DNA of 64,000 nucleotides from Candidatus Nomurabacteria bacterium. Its GTDB lineage: Bacteria > Patescibacteriota > Minisyncoccia > Phycocordibacterales > UBA5272. The position numbers were made by a program, and so were the translations under genes. The stretch covers positions 25,185 through 89,184 of the forward strand of contig JBAXSC010000002.1 of assembly GCA_037130925.1 (NCBI GenBank), given 5' to 3'. Of this stretch, positions 27,024 through 62,728 are shown piece by piece. A model generated the notes under the pieces. That model did no database searches and had not been told where the DNA came from. It was given only the letters and a program-made list of their open reading frames with translations. How positions within the stretch are numbered: the stretch's first letter is position 1; each line of letters begins with the position of its first letter.

Positions 27024-27518
27024 TTGACAATGAATCTTAATTATTCTAATATGTATTTGGTTCAAAAATTACTAACTATTAAATTTTTAAAAATGATCAT
27101 CTACGGATTTACAATCATTCTTCTAAGACACGATAACTTATTAAATGAAAAGTTATCTAAAAAAGAAAAAGAAAATATTCTTGACTTGTCAAAACAAGTC
27201 AGAGAAAAATATTTAAAACCAGAGCATAAAGTAGAATTACTTTGCAATGTATATTCTCCATTATTTCTACCAATATATGAAGATATAAAAACCAACTGTA
27301 AAGTTCTGTTATCTTTAACACAAGAGATTGATCCTATGTATCCTAAAGCTAGCTTTAGATATATTCAGGAAAGCATCTTGTCTTTCAAAAGAGATGTTCT
27401 TATTATTTTATGTCATGAAAAATTATTTAAATTAATGCTTCATAAACATAATCACAAATCAGAATCTTATTTGAAAGCCCTTATTATTAACAGAACAGAG
27501 ATTGAAGAAATAAAATAA
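27024..27518 (+). CDS. Hypothetical protein, possibly a degenerate histidine-phosphatase-fold protein. The true start is probably downstream (ATG 27051 or 27093).
   Basis: The TTG at 27024 coincides with a TTGACA-17-TAATAT promoter. The body reads IILLRHDNL...VYSPLFLPIYED...VLIILCHEKLFKLML. A terminator follows at ~27537..27570. Confidence 0.45.
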   Translation: MTMNLNYSNMYLVQKLLTIKFLKMIIYGFTIILLRHDNLLNEKLSKKEKENILDLSKQVREKYLKPEHKVELLCNVYSPLFLPIYEDIKTNCKVLLSLTQEIDPMYPKASFRYIQESILSFKRDVLIILCHEKLFKLMLHKHNHKSESYLKALIINRTEIEEIK

Positions 27519-28192: not shown

Positions 28193-28581
28193 GGGAGTGT
28201 CAGGATTCGACACCTAGTTATTTGTAAATGTGGTTTCCGATAATGAAAGTAAATCGTAAAAATCTTTCGCACACGCTGCAAACAATACAGCAAAGGCAAT
28301 CCCTTCACCATTCGTGGCGTTTGGATTCGCTCCAGTAGCCGCTTAATTTTTAAGCCGCTTTGGTGTCACCTCTCACTACATGACGTGAGAGATCTGATAA
28401 TATAGAGAACATGTGTAGAAAATTTTCTTTTTGTATTTCTGAAAATTTTTGAAATGTAAAAATACTAAGCTAAACAATTTTTCTTGTTTTATATGTTTAG
28501 ACGAAAATTAAAAAATGAGATATGAAACTAGAGTCATTTATGAGAACTATCTGCACGGGGGTTCAACTCCCCCCACTTCCA
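28193..28581 (+). ncRNA. ssrA: tmRNA (SsrA)
   Basis: The 5' end GGGAGTG pairs with the 3' end CACTTCC, giving a G3:U wobble (Ala identity), followed by discriminator A. T-arm: GGGGGTTCAACTCCCCC. The 5' end GGGAGTGTCAGGATTCGACA is typical. Tag ORF at 28275/28278..28346: (A)ANNTAKAIPSPFVAFGFAPVAA-stop. Promoter TTGATA-17-TAAAAT lies upstream. CCA is not encoded. Confidence 0.92.
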
Positions 28582-28588
28582 CAAAAGT

Positions 28589-33341: not shown

Positions 33342-33414
33342 GGTCCATGAAGGGAATCGAACCCTCAACCACTCGCTTCACAAACGAGTGCTCTACCTTT
33401 GAGCTACATGAACC
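33342..33414 (-). tRNA. tRNA-His (anticodon GTG) with genomically encoded G-1
   Basis: The minus strand reads G-GTTCATG-TA-GCTC-AAAGGTA-GAGC-A-CTCGT-TTGTGAA-GCGAG-TGGTT-GAGGG-TTCGATT-CCCTT-CATGGAC-C. This gives a full cloverleaf with G-1 opposite C73. The 3' CCA is not encoded (CAA follows). Confidence 0.9.
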
Positions 33415-44837: not shown

Positions 44838-47800
44838 TTATTTAACAATAACCATTTCCTCTTTTTCACTTTCTTCAAATTCAACATCAGACAATTTACA
44901 ATCTTTCATTAATTCTTCTTTGAAAGTCAAAATAAAATCTTTTCTTTCTTGATTTGTTTTTACTAAAAGAGAAACAATATCACTCGCTACTAAATTATTT
45001 TCTTTTCTTAAATCTTTTACTTTTCTTGTTAGCTCACGATATTCACCTTCTTTTTTCAATTCTTCTGTAATGTTTAAATCTAAGAATAAATTAGAAGATT
45101 CTGAATATTCAGCTTTTTCGTCTAAAATAATTTCTTTAACATTTATTTCATCTTTTAAGATTTCAAAATATTTTTCATCTAATTTTATTTTTGTAGTAAC
45201 AGAACTCAAAGGCTGACGAACAGGAAGATTATTTTTTTGACGAATCATAAGAGCCTCCGTCACGAGACTGCGAACTTCAACCATTTCTTCTAAAACTTTT
45301 TCATCAACAACTAAAAATTCTTTTGGCCAAGATTCTAAATGTACTGATTCTTTTTTGTTTAAATTTTCTTTATTTACAGACTGGTAAATTCTCTCAGCTA
45401 AAAATGGCATAAATGGTGCAATTACTTTTGAGAAATCATTTAAAACTTTATAAAGAGTAAATTCCGCAGAAACACCATCTTCACTTTTTAATCTATCACG
45501 AGATCTACGTAGCCACCATGTAGAAAGATCATCTATAAACTTATCAAAAGGTCTTGTCGCTTGATCGAGTCTATATTCATTCATGGACTTTGTCGTATTC
45601 GCTATAATCTCATTCAAACGAGTAAATATCCAATTATCAAGAGGGTTATCAAATCCTTTTAATAAATCATCATTAAAATTATGAGAAACTTCTAACATCT
45701 CATAAAAACTCAAAACATTTTCAAGTTTTGCGACTATTTTTTTATAAGTTTCTTCTACATTATTATCTGAGAAAGGAATGTTTTCAGCACACATTGCAGG
45801 AGAAGAAAGTAACGTCTGTCTAAATGCATCTGCTCCAAATTTTTCCACAACTAACATTGGAGGTGTAAAATTATTTTTACTTTTTGACATTTTTTCTCCG
45901 TCAGCAGCAAGTAGCATCCCATTTACAATTACATTTTTATAAGAAGTCTCATCAAATAATCCGACTGAAATATTTAATAAAGAATAAAACCACCCTCTAG
46001 TCTGATCAAGACCTTCAGCAATAAAGTCTGCAGGGAAAGTTTTTTCAAATAAATTTTTATTTTCAAAAGGATAATGTATTTGTCCATAAGGCATTGACCC
46101 AGACTCAAACCAGCAATCGAAAACATATTCGACTCTTGTCATTTCTTTTCCATTTTTACTTATTAATTTTACTTCGTCTATATATGGTCTGTGTAAATTA
46201 ATATTTCCTGTTTCATCTCTTGGTAAAATTTTTAAATCTAATTTTCTAACTTGTGCAAAATGCGGATAGAGTCTACTGTCATTCGATAATTCATCAGCTA
46301 TAATTTCTTCTTCTGTCATCAATTCTCCAGCTGCAAGCATCATTCTCATCGGTGCGCCATGTGTAGCTATTAATATTTTTTTACCGGAATATTTGTCTTC
46401 TAATTTAGAAAGTCCAAGCATCACTCTATTCATCACATCGCCATGACTTTCACCACCACCAATTTTAGTTTTTAATTTTAAATAATTTTTACCAAAATCA
46501 TTAAGCATTTCTTTTGGAGTTTTACCATTATATGTTCCTAAATCTATTTCATTAAAATATTCATATATTATAACTTCTTTCTCGCCAGCCATAATACCAG
46601 CAGTTTGATAAGCTCTAGGAAAAGCAGAAGATACAATCACGTCAAAATCTATTTCATTCTTTTTCTTTGAATCTTCAACTTGTGCGATACCGAGCTCAGT
46701 CAAAACATCTTTAGGATCCATCACCGTCTCTTCTATCCCTTCTACGTTATGTATAGACTCACCGTGACGCATAACATAGTATTCATTTTTAGGTTTACAA
46801 GAATTCATTTCAGCAAGCTCTTTTAAAGAGCCTATTACAACAACTTCATCCCCATCATTTTCTTTCCAAATTGGAAGAGGTGCGCCCCAATATCTACTTC
46901 TGGATACTGCCCACTCACGAGCCCCTTCGAGCCATTTTCCAAATCTTCCATCACGAATATTTTCTGGATTCCAATTTATATTTGCATTAGTAGCAAGTAA
47001 ATTATTTTTTATTTTTGGCACATCGATAAACCAAGAACTAGTAGCGTAATTTAAAAGTGGAGTATCACATCTCCAGCAAGTTGGATATGAGTGAACTAAT
47101 TTTTCTTTTGCAAAAAGCAATTTCTTTTCTGCTAAATATTTTATGATAGCAATATCTGCAGATTGATTATCTCCCGCTTTCTTTACTTTCATTCCAGCAA
47201 AATCTGTAATATCTTTTGTGAATTCACCATTCATTCCAACATGCTTTATTATTGGTAATTTCTTTTCTTTTCCCAAATTTAGATCGTCTTCACCAAATGC
47301 AGGAGCAATATGAACGACTCCAGTACCAGTATCAATAGATACGAATTCTGCATCGACAATAGTATAAATATTTTCTTTATTTTCTAATTTTGCATCGACG
47401 AAATAATTAAATACTGGTTTATATTTTTTACCAATTATTTTTTCTCCAGAAAATTCTTCTACAATTTTAAATTCTAGATTTTGTTTTTTAAATATTTCTT
47501 CAGCTCTTTCTTTTGCTACGATATAAAAATTACTATCAGAAGCCTCTACTTTTACATATTCAATTTCTTTATTTACAGCAAGAGCGACGTTTCCAGGAAG
47601 AGTCCAAGGTGTAGTAGTCCAAGCAAGAACAAAAGTATTTTCTTCGCCTTCTAATTCAAATTTTGCAGTCACAGAAATATCTGTTAGATCTTTATAATTC
47701 TGAGTTACTTCTGATTGAGCAAGAGTTGTCTCACAACGTGGACAAATATGCATACTTTTATGACCTTCAAAAACTAATCCTTTTTTAGATAATTCTTTAA

Positions 47801-48296
47801 ATACCCACCAGACTGATTCTGTATAAGTCCAATCTAGAGTTTTATAAGAATTTTCCATATCCACAAAACGTCCAAATCTAGGAATTATTTCTTTCCATTC
47901 TTTTTCATATGCAAAAACACTATCTTGCGCTTCTTTATTAAATCTATCAATACCAAAATTTTCAATTTCTTTTTTTGAATTCAAATCAAATTTTTTCTCA
48001 ATCAAATTTTCAATTGGAAGACCGTGACAATCCCAGCCCCAAACACGATGAACGTATTTACCATTCATTGTTTGATATCTCGGAATAGCATCTTTTATAG
48101 TTCCAGCCAAAAGATGACCATGATGAGGAAGTCCTGTCGCAAATGGAGGTCCATCATAAAAAGAGAAAGACTCTTTTGGTTCTTCACCTCCTGGCTTTTC
48201 TAGAGACTTTTCAAATATTTTATTCGCCTTCCAGAATTCTAAAACTTCTAATTCTTTTTCATTTATTGTTTTATTTTTGATTTGATTTGGATTCAT
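44838..48296 (-). CDS. ileS: Isoleucine--tRNA ligase (type 2) carrying an inserted histidine-phosphatase domain
   Basis: FYDGPPFATGLPHHGH (HIGH), GWDCHGLP, the editing domain, WAVSRSRYWGAPLPIW, KMSKSK. There is an extra ~190 aa at aa ~503-695 with RHGES...RAYQTA...GGES...ATHG. Confidence 0.95.
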   Translation of the reverse strand: MNPNQIKNKTINEKELEVLEFWKANKIFEKSLEKPGGEEPKESFSFYDGPPFATGLPHHGHLLAGTIKDAIPRYQTMNGKYVHRVWGWDCHGLPIENLIEKKFDLNSKKEIENFGIDRFNKEAQDSVFAYEKEWKEIIPRFGRFVDMENSYKTLDWTYTESVWWVFKELSKKGLVFEGHKSMHICPRCETTLAQSEVTQNYKDLTDISVTAKFELEGEENTFVLAWTTTPWTLPGNVALAVNKEIEYVKVEASDSNFYIVAKERAEEIFKKQNLEFKIVEEFSGEKIIGKKYKPVFNYFVDAKLENKENIYTIVDAEFVSIDTGTGVVHIAPAFGEDDLNLGKEKKLPIIKHVGMNGEFTKDITDFAGMKVKKAGDNQSADIAIIKYLAEKKLLFAKEKLVHSYPTCWRCDTPLLNYATSSWFIDVPKIKNNLLATNANINWNPENIRDGRFGKWLEGAREWAVSRSRYWGAPLPIWKENDGDEVVVIGSLKELAEMNSCKPKNEYYVMRHGESIHNVEGIEETVMDPKDVLTELGIAQVEDSKKKNEIDFDVIVSSAFPRAYQTAGIMAGEKEVIIYEYFNEIDLGTYNGKTPKEMLNDFGKNYLKLKTKIGGGESHGDVMNRVMLGLSKLEDKYSGKKILIATHGAPMRMMLAAGELMTEEEIIADELSNDSRLYPHFAQVRKLDLKILPRDETGNINLHRPYIDEVKLISKNGKEMTRVEYVFDCWFESGSMPYGQIHYPFENKNLFEKTFPADFIAEGLDQTRGWFYSLLNISVGLFDETSYKNVIVNGMLLAADGEKMSKSKNNFTPPMLVVEKFGADAFRQTLLSSPAMCAENIPFSDNNVEETYKKIVAKLENVLSFYEMLEVSHNFNDDLLKGFDNPLDNWIFTRLNEIIANTTKSMNEYRLDQATRPFDKFIDDLSTWWLRRSRDRLKSEDGVSAEFTLYKVLNDFSKVIAPFMPFLAERIYQSVNKENLNKKESVHLESWPKEFLVVDEKVLEEMVEVRSLVTEALMIRQKNNLPVRQPLSSVTTKIKLDEKYFEILKDEINVKEIILDEKAEYSESSNLFLDLNITEELKKEGEYRELTRKVKDLRKENNLVASDIVSLLVKTNQERKDFILTFKEELMKDCKLSDVEFEESEKEEMVIVK

Positions 48297-48320: not shown

Positions 48321-48608
48321 TTACTCACCTTTGATAGCGGATTCAATATCAAATCCTTTTTTCCAAAACGGAGCTGAGCTTGATATCATAAAACAAAAAA
48401 ACTTTGCTTTTAAAAAAGAAATTTTTCTTTCACGCATTTTTTTATATACCATTCCTAAATATTCTTTCTTTGTACCTTGAAAGCATATTTTTCCATCCTT
48501 AAAACAATATGAACAGAAATTTTTATTTTCTCTGATACCATCATCTGACTTTTTTGGCATTAAACATACTACGCACTGCTCATTCTTATTACATTGTTCT
48601 TTTGTCAT
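48321..48608 (-). CDS. Zinc-ribbon domain protein (95 aa)
   Basis: MTKEQCNKNEQCVVCLMP...FCSYCFKDGK resembles the 'putative zinc ribbon' (Zn_ribbon_2-like) family. It is the first ORF after the T-box leader. Start set to the ATG at 48608. Confidence 0.6.
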   Translation of the reverse strand: MTKEQCNKNEQCVVCLMPKKSDDGIRENKNFCSYCFKDGKICFQGTKKEYLGMVYKKMRERKISFLKAKFFCFMISSSAPFWKKGFDIESAIKGE

Positions 48609-48633
48609 ATTTTTATAAATTAAATTTTGATAA

Positions 48634-48792
48634 TAAAAAATCACCCCTGACTTTCAAGGGCGATTTTTTATTTCGCGGTACCACCTTGTTCACAAAATAT
48701 TTTCATATTTTGCCTCGTTGATTGGGCTCTACTAATCTTTCGATTTTCTTCCCAAAGCTCCGGAGTGATTAGTTCCATCAATGCTTTTATAT
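48634..48792 (-). promoter_or_regulatory. T-box riboswitch leader (tRNA-Ile-responsive, transcription-termination type)
   Basis: On the minus strand the antiterminator is CAAGG-UGGUACC-GCGA-AAUAAAAAA-UCGC-CCUUG. It contains the T-box core GGUGGUACCGCG (48674-85). The competing 11-bp terminator is AUCGCCCUUGA-AAG-UCAGGGGUGAU plus U6 (48634-64). Stem III is CAAAAUAU-GAAA-AUAUUUUG. AUC triplets occur in the Stem I region (48742-44 and 48720-22). The promoter is TTGTAG-16-TGATATTAT (48797-48824). Confidence 0.85.
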
Positions 48793-49399: not shown

Positions 49400-49819
49400 C
49401 TAAAGGTCTTTCTGATGCTCGTAAACTTTTGAATACTTTGATGTTACAAATCCATGTTTTTTGTAAAAGTTTAAAGATTCTTCTGTAGCATTTAAGAAAA
49501 TCCATTTCATTCCTAATCTTTTTACTAAATCTTCAAAATGATTTAATAATTTTCTGCCATAACCAAGACTTCTTTTTTCTGGATCTGTAGCAATATGCCA
49601 AATAATACATCCTTTATGAATTAATTTTTCAGAAAGTAAAACTGAAATTAAAATATCGTCTTCAAATAATCCCAAAGCAATACATTTTTCTTTACTTTCT
49701 AAAACATCACCTACCCATCCAGGACCAGGATACTCACCATAAGCATTACGAAGAATGTCTTGTTGTAAAATTTTTAAAACATCATTTAAATTTTCTTTTT
49801 CTAAATTTTTAATTTCCAT
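49400..49819 (-). CDS. GNAT family N-acetyltransferase
   Basis: ...IWHIATDPEKRSLGYGRKLLNHFE...NFYKKHGF. Confidence 0.75.
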   Translation of the reverse strand: MEIKNLEKENLNDVLKILQQDILRNAYGEYPGPGWVGDVLESKEKCIALGLFEDDILISVLLSEKLIHKGCIIWHIATDPEKRSLGYGRKLLNHFEDLVKRLGMKWIFLNATEESLNFYKKHGFVTSKYSKVYEHQKDL

Positions 49820-56258: not shown

Positions 56259-56382
56259 ATTTAAAGCAATATTATAAATATATTATAGCCTAAAATCTTT
56301 AAATCTTCTCTTTAAATAAATAAAACTTGTGGATAACAAACTCTTTTTTCATGATAAGATTAATATATTAAAAAATAAAACT

Positions 56383-57135
56383 ATGTTTACAAAATATTTT
56401 TACCTAGTCAGACACGGAGAGACTATTTTAAATAAAGAAAAAAGAAGACAAGGATCAGAAGGAAAACTTTCAGAAAATGGAGTAAATGAAGTCGAAGAAT
56501 TAAGTAAAAGACTTTTAAATATGAATATAGACAGGATGTTCGTCTCCCCTTATGAGAGAACTCGCCAAACAGCATCTATAATAAATTCTCATTTAAATTT
56601 ACCAGAAAATAAAATAACCATTACAGAATTATTAGCTGAAAGAAAAAATCCATCAATTATAATCGGACAAAGCTATGATGATCCGGTAGCAAAATCTTTT
56701 GTGGAAATAATGGATAAAACAATTCACGATCCAGATTTGAGACTTTATGATGAAGAAAATTTTGCAGACCTCCGAGACAGATCTATCAGAGCACAAAAAT
56801 ACTTAATCAAAAACAGTAGTGCTCACACACTCTGCATTACTCATGGAATATTTTTAAAAATGTTTTTATCAACTTTACTTTATGGAAAAAATTTAACAGT
56901 AAAACAACATGCAGAAATGAATTCATATAATCCTGCTGATAATGCTGGTGTGACTCTTGTAAAATATGAGCCAATAAAAGTTTTCACCAGACCTTTTAAA
57001 AAATTTTTTAGATCATTATTAAATGATGAACAAAATAAAAATGAAGAAATTAATTTACCAGAGAAAGACTCTCCTTGGACAATTCTTGCCTACAATGACT
57101 ACACTAGAGACGGATTTCAAAAGATGCATATTTAA
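56383..57135 (+). CDS. Histidine phosphatase family protein (PGAM-like, branch 1)
   Basis: YFYLVRHGETILN...FVSPYERTRQTA...LCITHGIFLKM. Start set to the ATG at 56383; the track ORF starts at an upstream GTG. Confidence 0.8.
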   Translation: MFTKYFYLVRHGETILNKEKRRQGSEGKLSENGVNEVEELSKRLLNMNIDRMFVSPYERTRQTASIINSHLNLPENKITITELLAERKNPSIIIGQSYDDPVAKSFVEIMDKTIHDPDLRLYDEENFADLRDRSIRAQKYLIKNSSAHTLCITHGIFLKMFLSTLLYGKNLTVKQHAEMNSYNPADNAGVTLVKYEPIKVFTRPFKKFFRSLLNDEQNKNEEINLPEKDSPWTILAYNDYTRDGFQKMHI

Positions 57136-61624: not shown

Positions 61625-62728
61625 TTATTTTCCAGATTTTATTCTATTATCTTCTTTACAAAGCATCTGACAATTTTCAGCGACAGTTCTTCCACCATCA
61701 TGCCATGGATTTATATGGTCAGCTTCCATATCTCCAATAGAGAACTCATCTTTACATGCAGGGCAAATACCATTTTGTCGTTCGTATGCTTCACGCTTCA
61801 TGTTTGGTGTAAAAGCTCGAATAGAAAGATATCTCTCTTTTTGATTTAATACATATGGATAAATACCAGATTTCTTTGTCACATCTTCATCAATCATTAA
61901 TTTTTTTATTTCTTTTTCTAGTTTTTCAGAATCAAGTTTTTTATTATTAAATTCATTATAAAGTTCACCCCAATTAACACCAGACATTTCTTTTCTATAA
62001 TTTGGAAAAGTCTTTCGTACCCAATGAACTACATTTTGAAAATGTTGCCACAATTCATCTGCGTTTTTATCATGTTGATGTTGTGCCATATATTCTTCTA
62101 TTTGTTCATTGCTTATCCAAGACAAAGCCGTTTCTAAATATTCTTGCCTAATGGGTGATCCGGTTATTAGCTGTCCACCATCATTTGCAAGCAAATATGC
62201 TGCACAATTTGATTTACTGAATTTTAATTTGGCATCAGAAAGCCAAGAACCTGTATAAACAGCATTTCTAAGTTCTTGGTCTGTTAATTTTTCACCAGCA
62301 ATATTAATAATTTTAAACCAATCAAGTTTTTCTTTGTCGTTTCCTTCACAGTGATAAATCATCAAATCATAATTTAAAATTTGCTCTTGTTCTTCTTTTG
62401 TAAGATTATGGAACATTGCAATTCTGCCATTAAATTCAATAGAAAAATCTCCATTTACAAATTGAGCAATACTGATTGTTCGTTGTTGTCCATCAAGTAC
62501 TTCAAAATTACCATCATCTTTTTTCACCCAATACATCACGTTTAAAGGAAAACCATTTTTAACAGTTCTAATTACTTCATCTCTTTGTTTTCCACTATAC
62601 ACAAATTCTCGCTGATACTTAGGACGAATATCCAATTTGCCACCAAAAGCTGATACGCCCTCTTCCGCACTATCTTTATAATCTTTTACAACTTCTGAAA
62701 TTTTTATTTTATGTAAATCTATTTTCAT
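61625..62728 (-). CDS. DUF262 (ParB-like NTPase/nuclease) + C-terminal HNH endonuclease protein, GmrSD/type IV restriction-like
   Basis: RPKYQREFVY and LDGQQRTISI are DUF262 signatures. The C-terminus CPACKDEF...DHINPWHDGGRTVAENCQMLCKEDNRIKSGK is an HNH motif. Confidence 0.8.
   Translation of the reverse strand: MKIDLHKIKISEVVKDYKDSAEEGVSAFGGKLDIRPKYQREFVYSGKQRDEVIRTVKNGFPLNVMYWVKKDDGNFEVLDGQQRTISIAQFVNGDFSIEFNGRIAMFHNLTKEEQEQILNYDLMIYHCEGNDKEKLDWFKIINIAGEKLTDQELRNAVYTGSWLSDAKLKFSKSNCAAYLLANDGGQLITGSPIRQEYLETALSWISNEQIEEYMAQHQHDKNADELWQHFQNVVHWVRKTFPNYRKEMSGVNWGELYNEFNNKKLDSEKLEKEIKKLMIDEDVTKKSGIYPYVLNQKERYLSIRAFTPNMKREAYERQNGICPACKDEFSIGDMEADHINPWHDGGRTVAENCQMLCKEDNRIKSGK

What the first reader, a model, noticed from the sequence alone, without database searches (positions are those of the whole stretch)
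46212..46790. Intact-looking histidine-phosphatase (PGAM-like) domain inserted inside isoleucyl-tRNA synthetase
The 1152-aa ileS ORF is uninterrupted and keeps both class-I signatures: PHHGH (aa 57-61) and KMSKS (aa 802-806). It also keeps the flanking type-2 IleRS blocks WAVSRSRYWGAPLPIW (aa 462-477) and NLHRPYIDEV (aa 700-709).

As far as I remember, IleRS enzymes such as the Thermus thermophilus one have only a short Cys-containing linker of a few tens of residues between those two blocks. Here there are ~190 extra residues (aa ~503-695). They read EYYVMRHGESIHN ... VSSAFPRAYQTA ... GGGESHGD ... ILIATHGAPMRMM.

That is the complete catalytic constellation of histidine-phosphatase branch 1: RHG, a second Arg, the Glu proton donor and the C-terminal His-Gly. 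The residues look conserved rather than decayed, which suggests an active phosphatase module grafted into an essential aaRS. I do not know of a described IleRS with this architecture.

A free-standing His-phosphatase paralogue lies at 56383..57135 and a degenerate one possibly at 27024..27518. The gene is also under T-box control (separate finding).
Basis: partly seen in the sequence, partly recalled or inferred. Interest (0 to 1): 0.8.

Follow-up and report, generated by a model that had tools for sequence, protein, structure and literature searches.

The report
Phosphatase domain nested inside isoleucyl-tRNA synthetase
An essential protein-synthesis enzyme (isoleucyl-tRNA synthetase) of a tiny Patescibacteria bacterium carries an apparently working phosphatase inside its catalytic core, and the same pairing recurs across this phylum in several forms, which points to an undescribed job linked to tRNA charging.

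Summary
Window 44838..48296 (-) encodes an uninterrupted 1152-aa type-2 IleRS. Pfam His_Phos_1 (E 1.3e-27) is nested between the two halves of tRNA-synt_1.

The roughly 200-aa module (aa 498-698) replaces a 6-10-residue linker in the middle of the CP3 subdomain. R510, H511, N517, R561, E583 and H646 are invariant in 120/120 relatives. dN/dS is 0.23 for the insert against 0.12-0.13 for the flanks. AF2 pLDDT is 90-96 over the insert.

It is not a chimera, because the 120 best database relatives from independent assemblies all carry it.

- The phosphatase occupies three different loops of Patescibacterial IleRS, in one to four copies.
- It sits at the homologous CP3 site in many ValRS.
- In one IleRS, tandem HAD phosphatases occupy site B and there is no His_Phos_1.
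- In relatives with the same argS-ileS-recO synteny, it is a separate gene directly upstream of an insert-less ileS.

The proton donor is E583, not E616. ORF 27024..27518 is not a detectable phosphatase.

I conclude that this is an active phosphomonoesterase functionally coupled to class-Ia synthetases. The substrate is unknown. My leading guess, at low confidence, is a phosphate on the tRNA 3' end. I found no description in the literature.

The parts
44838..48296 (-). ileS: 1152-aa type-2 isoleucyl-tRNA synthetase with a nested phosphatase
   Evidence: ORF. TIGR00392 842 bits against cutoff 621. PF00133 + PF00300 + PF08264 + PF19302. Best fold matches are IleRS2 8c9d/8c8v, TM 0.72-0.80.
46806..48296 (-). 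IleRS aa 1-497: first Rossmann half, CP1 editing domain, CP2, CP2-3 linker WAVSRSRYWG, first part of CP3
   Evidence: Aligns to solved IleRS up to residue ~495 of human IleRS and ~493 of yeast IleRS. Domain limits from PMC7955072 and PMC7191050.
48114..48128 (-). HIGH signature (PHHGH, aa 57-61)
   Evidence: Sequence. P57, H58 and G60 are invariant.
46203..46805 (-). Inserted histidine-phosphatase (His_Phos_1) module, aa 498-698, replacing the tip of CP3
   Evidence: PF00300 E 3.9e-29 when scanned alone. Boundaries from alignment with insert-less IleRS. pLDDT 90-96. dN/dS 0.23.
46761..46769 (-). RHG motif (R510, H511, G512); H511 is the predicted nucleophile
   Evidence: R510 and H511 invariant in 120/120, G512 92%. 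Aligns with RHG of PhoE 1h2e.
46614..46616 (-). R561, second phosphate-binding arginine
   Evidence: Invariant in 120/120.
46548..46550 (-). E583, predicted proton donor (NEIDLG, aligned with REIHLG of PhoE)
   Evidence: Invariant. Alignment to 1ebb/1h2e.
46359..46361 (-). H646 (THG), second active-site histidine
   Evidence: Invariant. Aligns with THG of PhoE.
44838..46202 (-). IleRS aa 699-1152: rest of CP3 (NLHRPYID), second Rossmann half, KMSKS, anticodon-binding and DUF5915 C-terminal domains
45879..45893 (-). KMSKS signature (aa 802-806)
   Evidence: Sequence. K802, S804, K805 and S806 are invariant.
48653..48790 (-). T-box-like leader upstream of the ileS operon (sub-threshold)
   Evidence: RF00230, 48 bits, E 3.9e-9, gathering score 93. 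Not reported at the gathering threshold.

Best explanation
The gene encodes a working type-2 IleRS. The tip of its CP3 subdomain is a short zinc-knuckle linker in insert-less relatives. Here it has been replaced by a complete, catalytically competent branch-1 histidine phosphatase domain: nucleophile H511, phosphate clamps R510/R561/H646, N517, and proton donor E583.

This is one state of a conserved partnership between this phosphatase lineage and the class-Ia synthetases IleRS and ValRS in Patescibacteria. The phosphatase is either a separate gene directly upstream of ileS (overlapping it in L011/L012), or it is nested in one of three surface loops around the catalytic core.

Shown:
- the architecture
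- conservation of the catalytic residues
- purifying selection
- recurrence and the split/fused states

Inferred:
- The module is an active phosphomonoesterase (about 0.8).
- It acts in cis on something handled by the synthetase, rather than on an unrelated metabolite (about 0.6).

My specific, low-confidence commitment (about 0.2) concerns the substrate. I propose a 3'(2')-terminal phosphate or pyrophosphate on the tRNA acceptor end. Such an end is left by tRNases or by toxin pyrophosphorylation and blocks charging. The phosphatase would heal the end while the tRNA is held by the synthetase.
For: Architecture and integrity:
- His_Phos_1 is nested in tRNA-synt_1. ileS scores above its curated cutoff.
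- Boundaries are clean.
- AF2 gives mean pLDDT 86, and 90-96 in the insert.

Conservation:
- R510, H511, N517, R561, E583, E616, R624 and H646 are invariant in 120/120 relatives.
- dN/dS is 0.23 in the insert against 0.12-0.13 in the flanks.
- Nearly all copies in other lineages keep the same residues.

Functional coupling:
- All 120 best IleRS hits carry the domain.
- Copies sit at three distinct loops in the combinations A, B, C, AA, AC, BC and ABC. Copies group by site.
- About half of the retrieved Patescibacterial ValRS carry it, mostly at the homologous site.
- P0338 has two intact HAD phosphatases in site B and no His_Phos_1. This suggests that phosphatase chemistry itself is what is selected.
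- Three of four informative free-standing relatives of the insert lie directly upstream of an insert-less ileS. In the two loci that extend far enough downstream (L009, L011/L012) the window's ileS-recO synteny is shared, and L011/L012 also show argS upstream.

For a nucleotide or tRNA-end substrate:
- The insertion is about 30 residues after the WxxSRxRYWG CP2-3 linker, which lines the tRNA 3'-end/reveromycin pocket (PMC7955072).
- The domain keeps the cap helix (aa 594-606) that small-substrate members such as PhoE also have (alignment).
- Sister IleRS also carry P-loop AAA_33/Zeta-type kinase domains. AAA_33-type kinase plus phosphatase is the end-healing pair of T4 Pnkp (my own knowledge).
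- The ileS-adjacent free-standing phosphatases are very basic, +23 to +28 net charge.
Against: - No activity or substrate was tested.
- I could not obtain model coordinates, so the distance from H511 to the synthetic site or the A76 pocket is unknown.
- To my knowledge, no histidine-phosphatase family member is known to act on RNA 3' ends.
- The embedded domains are mildly acidic, about -2 per 100 aa.
- The basic charge of the free-standing copies is partly a genome-wide lysine bias. Neighbouring non-RNA proteins reach +9 to +11 per 100 aa.
- A minority of ValRS copies have lost the proton donor and the second His (RHGNRSERN, RHGNRAERN), so catalysis is not universally retained.
- At least one 1.02-Mb contig encodes IleRS and ValRS that both lack the domain.
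- The same IleRS loops also accept GNAT, DUF559 and Ser-hydrolase domains. The loops may therefore simply tolerate passengers.
Confidence: 0.5

Rival explanations
1. Passenger enzyme. The phosphatase is an ordinary housekeeping phosphatase with a metabolic substrate unrelated to aminoacylation. In these tiny, compact genomes it was first co-transcribed with ileS. It was later captured into permissive surface loops, and IleRS serves only as an expression and stability scaffold.
For: The same loops accept unrelated enzymes: GNAT, DUF559, Ser hydrolase, kinases. All equivalog models (PspA, CobC, dPGM, SixA) score far below their cutoffs, so no specific function is indicated. The insert evolves faster than the core: 50% against 70-78% mean pairwise identity. 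A genome with neither IleRS nor ValRS carrying it exists.
Against: The domain is captured at three loops of IleRS and at the homologous loop of ValRS. Tandem HAD phosphatases occupy an IleRS loop in a protein without His_Phos_1. The operon adjacency is tight and recurrent. These are hard to explain without a functional link to class-Ia synthetases.
Confidence: 0.25
2. Target-site immunity. The nested enzymes (phosphatase, HAD, GNAT, Ser hydrolase, kinase) are detoxifying modules placed on the target enzyme. They would inactivate aminoacyl-adenylate mimics or other phosphorylated inhibitors of IleRS/ValRS, by analogy with the MccE (GNAT), MccF (Ser peptidase) and MccH (phosphoramidase) immunity enzymes for microcin C.
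For: The repertoire of nested domains matches the classes of small-molecule-modifying resistance enzymes. IleRS is a frequent antibiotic target: mupirocin, SB-203207/8 and reveromycin appear in the papers listed. The domain has the cap typical of small-substrate members.
Against: No known inhibitor is a phosphomonoester substrate for a histidine phosphatase. DUF559 nuclease and deaminase domains do not fit this idea. Presence across whole classes looks more like housekeeping than arms-race variation.
Confidence: 0.1
3. Regulatory module. The domain dephosphorylates the synthetase itself (for example a phosphorylated KMSKS-loop serine, as HipA/HipT-type kinases produce on GltX/TrpS) or a partner protein. 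Alternatively, it acts as a non-turnover phospho-ligand sensor that allosterically tunes IleRS.
For: Sites B and C flank the KMSKS loop. Some sister proteins carry both a kinase and a phosphatase. Some ValRS copies keep the phosphate-binding residues but lose the proton donor and second His, which is compatible with binding without turnover. The superfamily includes protein phosphatases such as SixA, PGAM5 and Sts (my own knowledge).
Against: The domain has the cap region of small-substrate enzymes rather than the minimal SixA-like form. The full catalytic set is invariant in the window's family. No IleRS-directed kinase is known.
Confidence: 0.1
4. Artefact or selfish insertion: a chimeric assembly, an intein-like or mobile element, or a decaying relic with no function.
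For: CPR genomes are known for insertions in essential genes (my own knowledge). DUF559 and a Y1 transposase hit occur in some sister IleRS.
Against: There is an identical protein in an NCBI MAG on a 159-kb contig, and 119 further relatives from independent assemblies carry the same architecture. The reading frame is uninterrupted. There are no intein/Hint Pfam hits. The catalytic residues are invariant and dN/dS is 0.23. GC content is unremarkable across the junctions.
Confidence: 0.02

Closest known systems
Type-2 (eukaryote-like, mupirocin-resistant class) IleRS, e.g. Priestia megaterium IleRS2 (8c8v/8c9d) and Thermus thermophilus IleRS (1ile)
   Same: Same enzyme family and fold: TIGR00392 above cutoff, TM 0.72-0.88. 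HIGH, KMSKS, the CP1 editing motifs and the DUF5915 C-terminal domain are present.
   Different: None of the solved IleRS has anything at this point of CP3 beyond a short linker. T. thermophilus has a zinc motif in CP3 (PMC7191050). Here the flanking cysteines are lost and a 200-aa enzyme is inserted. The MupA/MupB models score 719 against a cutoff of 1900, so it is not one of those.
PhoE / PspA / CobC-type small broad-specificity histidine phosphatases (1h2e, 4ij5, 6nru)
   Same: Same superfamily branch and same catalytic residues. Size is similar, about 190-200 aa, including the cap region.
   Different: Only about 25-30% identical. All curated equivalog cutoffs are missed by a wide margin, for example PspA at 59-63 bits against 350. 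It is embedded in another enzyme rather than free-standing.
NCBIfam NF040702 'ileS_w_GNAT' (IleRS containing an N-acetyltransferase domain)
   Same: This is a curated precedent for an IleRS with a foreign catalytic domain. In Gracilibacteria-type IleRS the GNAT occupies site B, often together with a His_Phos_1 at site C.
   Different: The window protein has no GNAT and scores 283 against a cutoff of 1999. Its insert is a phosphatase at site A. I found no paper describing either architecture.
Bifunctional RNase H / acid phosphatase (Rv2228c type, NCBIfam PRK07238) and PFK-2/FBPase-2
   Same: These are histidine-phosphatase domains fused to another enzyme. PRK07238 is the second-best NCBIfam phosphatase hit, at 57-61 bits. 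The kinase-plus-His_Phos pairing seen in P0339 and P0354 recalls PFK-2/FBPase-2 (my own knowledge).
   Different: Those are end-to-end fusions, not insertions into a catalytic core. The partner enzymes are unrelated to aaRS. The score is far below the cutoff of 326.
Lineage-specific insertion modules of class-Ia aaRS (CP1 editing domain, leucine-specific domain of LeuRS)
   Same: An autonomous domain is inserted in a loop of the Rossmann-fold catalytic domain. By my own recollection, site B corresponds roughly to where the LeuRS leucine-specific domain sits.
   Different: Those modules act on the aminoacyl moiety or tRNA and are not phosphatases. No phosphoryl-transfer chemistry is known in any aaRS accessory domain.

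Membership tests
Histidine phosphatase superfamily, branch 1 (PF00300) | Significant match to the family profile above the curated threshold | tested here: met
   97.2 bits in the whole protein and 102.1 bits for the insert alone, against a gathering score of 21.7.
Histidine phosphatase superfamily, branch 1 (PF00300) | RHG motif with nucleophilic His, second Arg, Glu proton donor, C-terminal His | tested here: met
   R510, H511, R561, E583 and H646 align with the PhoE catalytic residues and are invariant in 120/120 relatives.
Histidine phosphatase superfamily, branch 1 (PF00300) | Alpha/beta fold forming an autonomous domain | tested here: inconclusive
   AF2 gives pLDDT 90-96 and an alternating strand/helix pattern over aa 505-686. 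I did not run a fold search on the insert alone, and I had no coordinates.
Histidine phosphatase superfamily, branch 1 (PF00300) | Phosphomonoesterase or mutase activity via a phospho-histidine intermediate | not testable with these tools
   Requires an enzyme assay.
Specific phosphatase equivalogs (PspA, CobC, dPGM, SixA, GpmB) | Score above NCBIfam's curated equivalog cutoff | tested here: not met
   Best are PspA 63.4 against 350, dPGM_arch 59.3 against 225, CobC 58.4 against 162.9, and SixA 21.2 against 74.5.
Isoleucyl-tRNA synthetase, type 2 | ileS equivalog score above cutoff; HIGH and KMSKS signatures; type-2 C-terminal domain | tested here: met
   TIGR00392 842 against 621. PHHGH and KMSKS are present and conserved. 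DUF5915 is present. Best folds are IleRS2.
Isoleucyl-tRNA synthetase, type 2 | Aminoacylation and editing activity | not testable with these tools
   Only the sequence motifs (TTTPWT, GTGVVHIAPAFG in CP1) can be read.
MupA/MupB acquired mupirocin-resistance IleRS | Score above the NCBIfam exception-model cutoff | tested here: not met
   719 bits against a cutoff of 1900 for both.
ileS_w_GNAT (NF040702) | IleRS with a nested GNAT domain; score above cutoff | tested here: not met
   282.9 against 1999. No GNAT Pfam hit in the protein.
Intein / homing element | Hint or intein splicing domains, or a homing endonuclease, within the insert | tested here: not met
   The only Pfam family in the insert is His_Phos_1. 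The junction sequences (…CKPKNEYY… and …PRDETGNINLHRP…) show no His-Asn followed by Cys, Ser or Thr at the downstream junction.
T-box regulated gene | RF00230 match at or above the gathering score upstream of the gene | tested here: inconclusive
   48 bits, E 3.9e-9, gathering score 93, at 48653..48790 (-). A 107-aa ORF lies between it and ileS.

The most novel reading that the evidence does not exclude
Patescibacterial IleRS and ValRS contain, or are operon-coupled to, a dedicated phosphatase that removes a blocking phosphate or pyrophosphate from the tRNA 3' end (or another phosphorylated aminoacylation ligand) while the tRNA is bound. This would be a new 'repair-before-charging' quality-control activity built into aminoacyl-tRNA synthetases. 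The other nested domains (kinase, HAD, GNAT, hydrolase) would form a wider toolkit of tRNA-end or ligand-processing modules mounted on the synthetase.
Probability: 0.2. Interest if true: 0.9.

Novelty: new variant of a known kind. Interest (0 to 1): 0.72.

Why it matters
Aminoacyl-tRNA synthetases are among the best-studied enzymes, and their accessory domains (editing, tRNA-binding, signalling) are well catalogued. As far as I could find, a conserved, catalytically intact phosphatase inside the catalytic core is not among them.

Four lines of evidence together make a strong comparative-genomic argument for a functional link between phosphoryl hydrolysis and tRNA charging:
- recurrence at three loops of IleRS
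- parallel insertion in ValRS
- a non-homologous HAD phosphatase in the same loop of one IleRS that lacks His_Phos_1
- a split-gene state directly upstream of ileS

No current model of aminoacylation includes such a link. It concerns a whole phylum of ultra-small, host-dependent bacteria with minimal gene sets, where retained domains are unlikely to be idle.

The question is directly testable with one recombinant protein. The protein could also provide a natural scaffold showing which aaRS loops tolerate whole-enzyme insertions.

Tried and rejected
- **Chimeric assembly:** rejected. An identical protein sits on a 159-kb NCBI contig, and all 119 further top hits share the architecture.
- **Intein or mobile element:** rejected. 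There are no Hint or endonuclease hits and no splice-junction residues.
- **Ordinary CP insertion common to IleRS:** rejected. Solved IleRS and insert-less Patescibacterial IleRS have only a 6-10-residue linker here.
- **Origin from the window's free-standing phosphatase at 56329..57135:** rejected as a close source. It is 26% identical, and its nearest neighbours are other free-standing proteins.
- **Degenerate phosphatase at 27024..27518:** no Pfam hit.
- **Monophyly of all embedded copies:** unresolved. Distances are near saturation (about 0.7), only site C forms a clean clade, and free-standing sequences intersperse.
- **Window GNAT gene (49400..49819) as the split counterpart of IleRS-nested GNATs:** only generic GNAT-core similarity, 26% over 68 aa.
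- **Ser_hydrolase gene beside insert-less ileS in L006 as counterpart of the nested one in P0328:** not significant.
- **Basic charge of ileS-adjacent phosphatases as proof of RNA binding:** weakened by genome-wide lysine richness.
- **Strictly complementary IleRS/ValRS distribution:** rejected. All four combinations occur on single contigs.
- **AFDB fold search for named organisms:** the library was unavailable.
- **Cluster look-up of multi-copy variants:** gave no source names.
- **Context of P0141 and P0151:** contigs too short to show context.
Full report
**1. Observation**

The window carries one uninterrupted 1152-aa ORF at 44838..48296 on the minus strand. The finding's coordinates, 46212..46790, translate exactly to aa 503-695.

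Pfam places His_Phos_1 (PF00300) at aa 507-657, with 97 bits and E 1.3e-27 against a gathering score of 21.7. It lies between two stretches of tRNA-synt_1 and is followed by Anticodon_1 and DUF5915. NCBIfam's ileS equivalog TIGR00392 scores 842 bits against a cutoff of 621, again in two stretches.

Base composition shows no discontinuity at the junctions.

**2. Anatomy of the insert**

Boundaries:
- Alignment to solved IleRS brackets the extra segment tightly. Human IleRS residues 495 and 498 align with query residues 501 and 700. The first matched stretches of yeast 7d5c and T. thermophilus 1ile end at the same point, at query residues 499 and 502.
- Aligned with insert-less Patescibacterial IleRS, the module (aa ~498-698) replaces a 6-10-residue linker between a GS.EEL helix and DLHRPYID.
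- Published domain limits are CP3 = yeast IleRS 459-526 (PMC7955072) and C. albicans IleRS 473-534 (PMC7191050). These put the insertion in the middle of the CP3 subdomain.
- The insertion is about 30 residues after the WxxSRxRYWG CP2-3 linker, which lines the pocket for the tRNA 3' end and reveromycin.
- T. thermophilus CP3 carries a zinc motif. The insert-less relatives have CxxC pairs on both sides of the insertion point. The window protein has lost those cysteines.

Catalytic residues:
- Alignment to the PhoE phosphatase (1ebb/1h2e) gives R510-H511 as the RHG nucleophile motif, E583 (NEIDLG) as the proton donor, and H646 (THG) as the second histidine.

Structure:
- An AF2 model built on 107 relatives has mean pLDDT 86 and 90-96 across the insert. 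It shows the alternating strand/helix pattern and the cap helix expected of the fold.
- Its best solved-structure matches are type-2 IleRS (8c9d, 8c8v; TM 0.72-0.80). None of them has this domain.

**3. Selection**

- In 120 relatives of 54-80% identity, R510, H511, N517, R561, E583, G587, E616, R624 and H646 are invariant.
- The insert is less conserved overall than the catalytic core: mean pairwise identity 0.50 against 0.70-0.78. This is similar to the anticodon-binding domain (0.55) and higher than the C-terminal domain (0.42).
- Against the 80%-identical orthologue in L005, dN/dS is 0.23 in the insert and 0.12-0.13 in the flanks. dS is about 0.9 and therefore near saturation.
- This is the pattern of a functional domain, not a decaying passenger.

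**4. Spread**

- The identical protein exists in an NCBI 'Candidatus Nomurabacteria' MAG on a 159-kb contig.
- All 120 best hits carry PF00300. They come from NCBI, JGI, ENA and Logan assemblies and are labelled Nomurabacteria, Paceibacterota, Parcubacteria, Pacebacteria and Gracilibacteria.
- That excludes a chimeric assembly.
- Four species-representative genomes labelled Saccharibacteria, Paceibacterota and Patescibacteria have the same site-A architecture at 35-50% identity.

**5. A wider phenomenon**

An exhaustive search with the insert alone returned many long proteins. All 14 that I scanned are IleRS.

Insertion sites. Mapping the copies against IleRS motifs shows three distinct sites:
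- Site A lies between WxxSRxRYWG and DCWFESG. This is CP3, the window's site.
- Site B lies between DCWFESG and DQTRGWF.
- Site C lies after KMSKS and before the anticodon-binding domain.
- The combinations seen are A, B, C, AA, AC, BC and ABC, with up to four copies in one protein.
- Nearly all copies keep the catalytic set.
- Copies are closest to copies at the same site in other proteins: A to A in 72/82, B to B in 13/18, C to C in 63/64. Each site therefore has its own lineage. The deep branching order is unresolved.

Other nested domains. In Gracilibacteria, Peregrinibacteria and Peribacteria-type IleRS, the same loops also hold:
- GNAT, which NCBI has curated as 'ileS_w_GNAT'
- DUF559
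- a Ser hydrolase
- P-loop AAA_33/Zeta-type kinases
- in P0338, two tandem HAD phosphatases with intact DxD motifs and no His_Phos_1

ValRS:
- A genome whose IleRS lacks the insert encodes a ValRS with His_Phos_1 inserted right after WCISRQIWWGHQIPVWY, the homologous CP3 site.
- About half of the retrieved Patescibacterial ValRS have it.
- A minority of those have lost the proton donor and second His.
- Matching contig lengths shows genomes with the domain in both enzymes, in either one alone, or in neither.

**6. Split-gene state**

The free-standing proteins most similar to the insert were traced to their contigs:
- P0126 (190 aa) ends one base before an insert-less 972-aa type-2 ileS, which is followed by recO and a DUF7619 protein.
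- P0130 (193 aa) lies between argS and a 938-aa insert-less ileS, overlapping it by 10 nt, with recO and DUF7619 downstream.
- P0146 is followed 34 nt later by an IleRS N-terminus.
- P0131 is not next to ileS.
- Two further contigs were too short to tell.

The window has the same argS ... ileS - recO - DUF11 order. Fused and split states thus occur at the same locus in related organisms. This is a classical indicator of functional association.

**7. Mechanism**

What is shown:
- An intact catalytic constellation under purifying selection.
- Physical or transcriptional linkage to IleRS/ValRS that has arisen repeatedly.
- Occupation of an IleRS loop by a non-homologous phosphatase.

What I infer:
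- The module is an active phosphomonoesterase (about 0.8).
- It serves the synthetase's own chemistry rather than an unrelated pathway (about 0.6).

The substrate is unknown. All curated phosphatase equivalogs are missed by wide margins. The presence of the cap region argues for a small or terminal-nucleotide substrate rather than a phosphoprotein.

My leading specific guess (about 0.2) is a blocking 3'(2')-phosphate or pyrophosphate on the tRNA acceptor end. The reasons are:
- the insertion's sequence proximity to the 3'-end pocket
- the co-occurrence in sister proteins of Pnkp-like kinase and HAD modules (plus my own knowledge of T4 Pnkp)
- the generality across IleRS and ValRS
- the strongly basic free-standing versions

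The weaknesses are real:
- No family precedent for RNA ends.
- The embedded copies are acidic.
- The basic charge is partly explained by lysine-rich proteomes.
- I had no coordinates with which to measure geometry.

Rivals are a passenger housekeeping phosphatase (0.25), a detoxifying or immunity module against adenylate-mimic inhibitors (0.1), a regulatory phosphatase or sensor (0.1), and an artefact or selfish element (0.02).

**8. Comparison with the known, and novelty**

- The host enzyme is a bona fide type-2 IleRS.
- The insert is a bona fide branch-1 histidine phosphatase, but not a member of any characterised subfamily.
- The nearest precedents are NCBI's 'ileS_w_GNAT' model, end-to-end fusions such as RNase H/acid phosphatase and PFK-2/FBPase-2, and the native insertion modules of class-Ia synthetases.
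- Seven full-text searches found no paper linking IleRS or ValRS to a histidine-phosphatase or phosphoglycerate-mutase-like domain. The library does not cover subscription journals.
- The sequences are public and auto-annotated, mostly as 'class I tRNA ligase family protein'.
- I therefore rate it a new variant of a known kind: an aaRS with an accessory catalytic domain, apparently undescribed, and of high interest to aaRS specialists.

**9. Limits**

- No enzymology was possible, and there was no access to model coordinates.
- The genome-wide taxonomic census was limited by a poorly chosen single-sequence scan and an unavailable AFDB library.
- LeuRS and MetRS were not surveyed. The window's own MetRS and ArgRS have no such domain.
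- Whether the organism has a second ileS cannot be told from 64 kb.

Noticed in passing
window 48653..48790 (-): T-box-like leader, RF00230 at 48 bits, E 3.9e-9, well below the gathering score of 93 and only 138 nt long. A 107-aa ORF (48321..48644, weak Zn_ribbon_2 hit) lies between it and ileS. Either that ORF is part of the regulated operon or it is spurious.
   Followed up: partly
window 49400..49819 (-): A 139-aa GNAT acetyltransferase gene sits directly after argS and upstream of ileS, in the argS-ileS interval that holds the free-standing phosphatase gene in L011/L012. GNAT is also the other domain nested in IleRS of Gracilibacteria. Similarity to a nested GNAT (P0289) is only generic: 26% over 68 aa.
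   Followed up: partly
window 56329..57135 (+): Free-standing 268-aa His_Phos_1 protein (E 1.6e-26) with a ~50-aa C-terminal extension. It is only 26% identical to the IleRS insert and is not its close paralogue.
   Followed up: yes
window 27024..27518 (+): The ORF proposed as a degenerate phosphatase has no Pfam match at E<=0.001.
   Followed up: yes
window 46740..46880 and 46150..46200 (-), aa ~478-484 and ~711-717: The CxxC pairs that flank the CP3 insertion point in insert-less relatives (a likely zinc knuckle, as in T. thermophilus IleRS) are absent in the window protein (KENDGDE / LISKNGK).
   Followed up: partly
L007 13319..15204 (and L008 9725..11610): A ValRS of 1337 aa has His_Phos_1 inserted at the homologous CP3 site. 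About half of the Patescibacterial ValRS retrieved carry it. Some have lost the proton-donor Glu and second His.
   Followed up: partly
proteins P0338, P0289, P0290, P0328, P0339, P0354, P0330, P0360 (relatives, not in the window): Gracilibacteria/Peregrinibacteria IleRS carry further nested domains: tandem HAD phosphatases, GNAT, DUF559 (Vsr-like nuclease, once inside CP1), Ser hydrolase, AAA_33/Zeta-toxin-like kinase, a MafB19-type deaminase hit and a Y1 transposase hit. Proteins reach 1859 aa.
   Followed up: partly
L009 6001..6573, L011 5001..5582, L014 552..1160: The free-standing phosphatases encoded immediately upstream of insert-less ileS are extremely basic (net +23, +28, +25 in ~190-200 aa). 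The non-adjacent relative P0131 is acidic (-6). The host genomes are lysine-rich overall.
   Followed up: partly
window 28193..28584 (+) and 33342..33413 (-): tmRNA (88 bits) and one tRNA gene are the only Rfam matches at gathering threshold in the window.
   Followed up: no
window 61625..62728 (-): A 367-aa protein with GmrSD_N and HNH endonuclease domains, which is a type IV restriction-like defence gene.
   Followed up: no
L006 9332..9841 (-): Next to an insert-less ileS (P0340, 1.02-Mb contig) lies a 169-aa gene with a weak Ser_hydrolase/PGAP1 hit, on the opposite strand. It has no significant similarity to the Ser hydrolase nested in P0328.
   Followed up: yes
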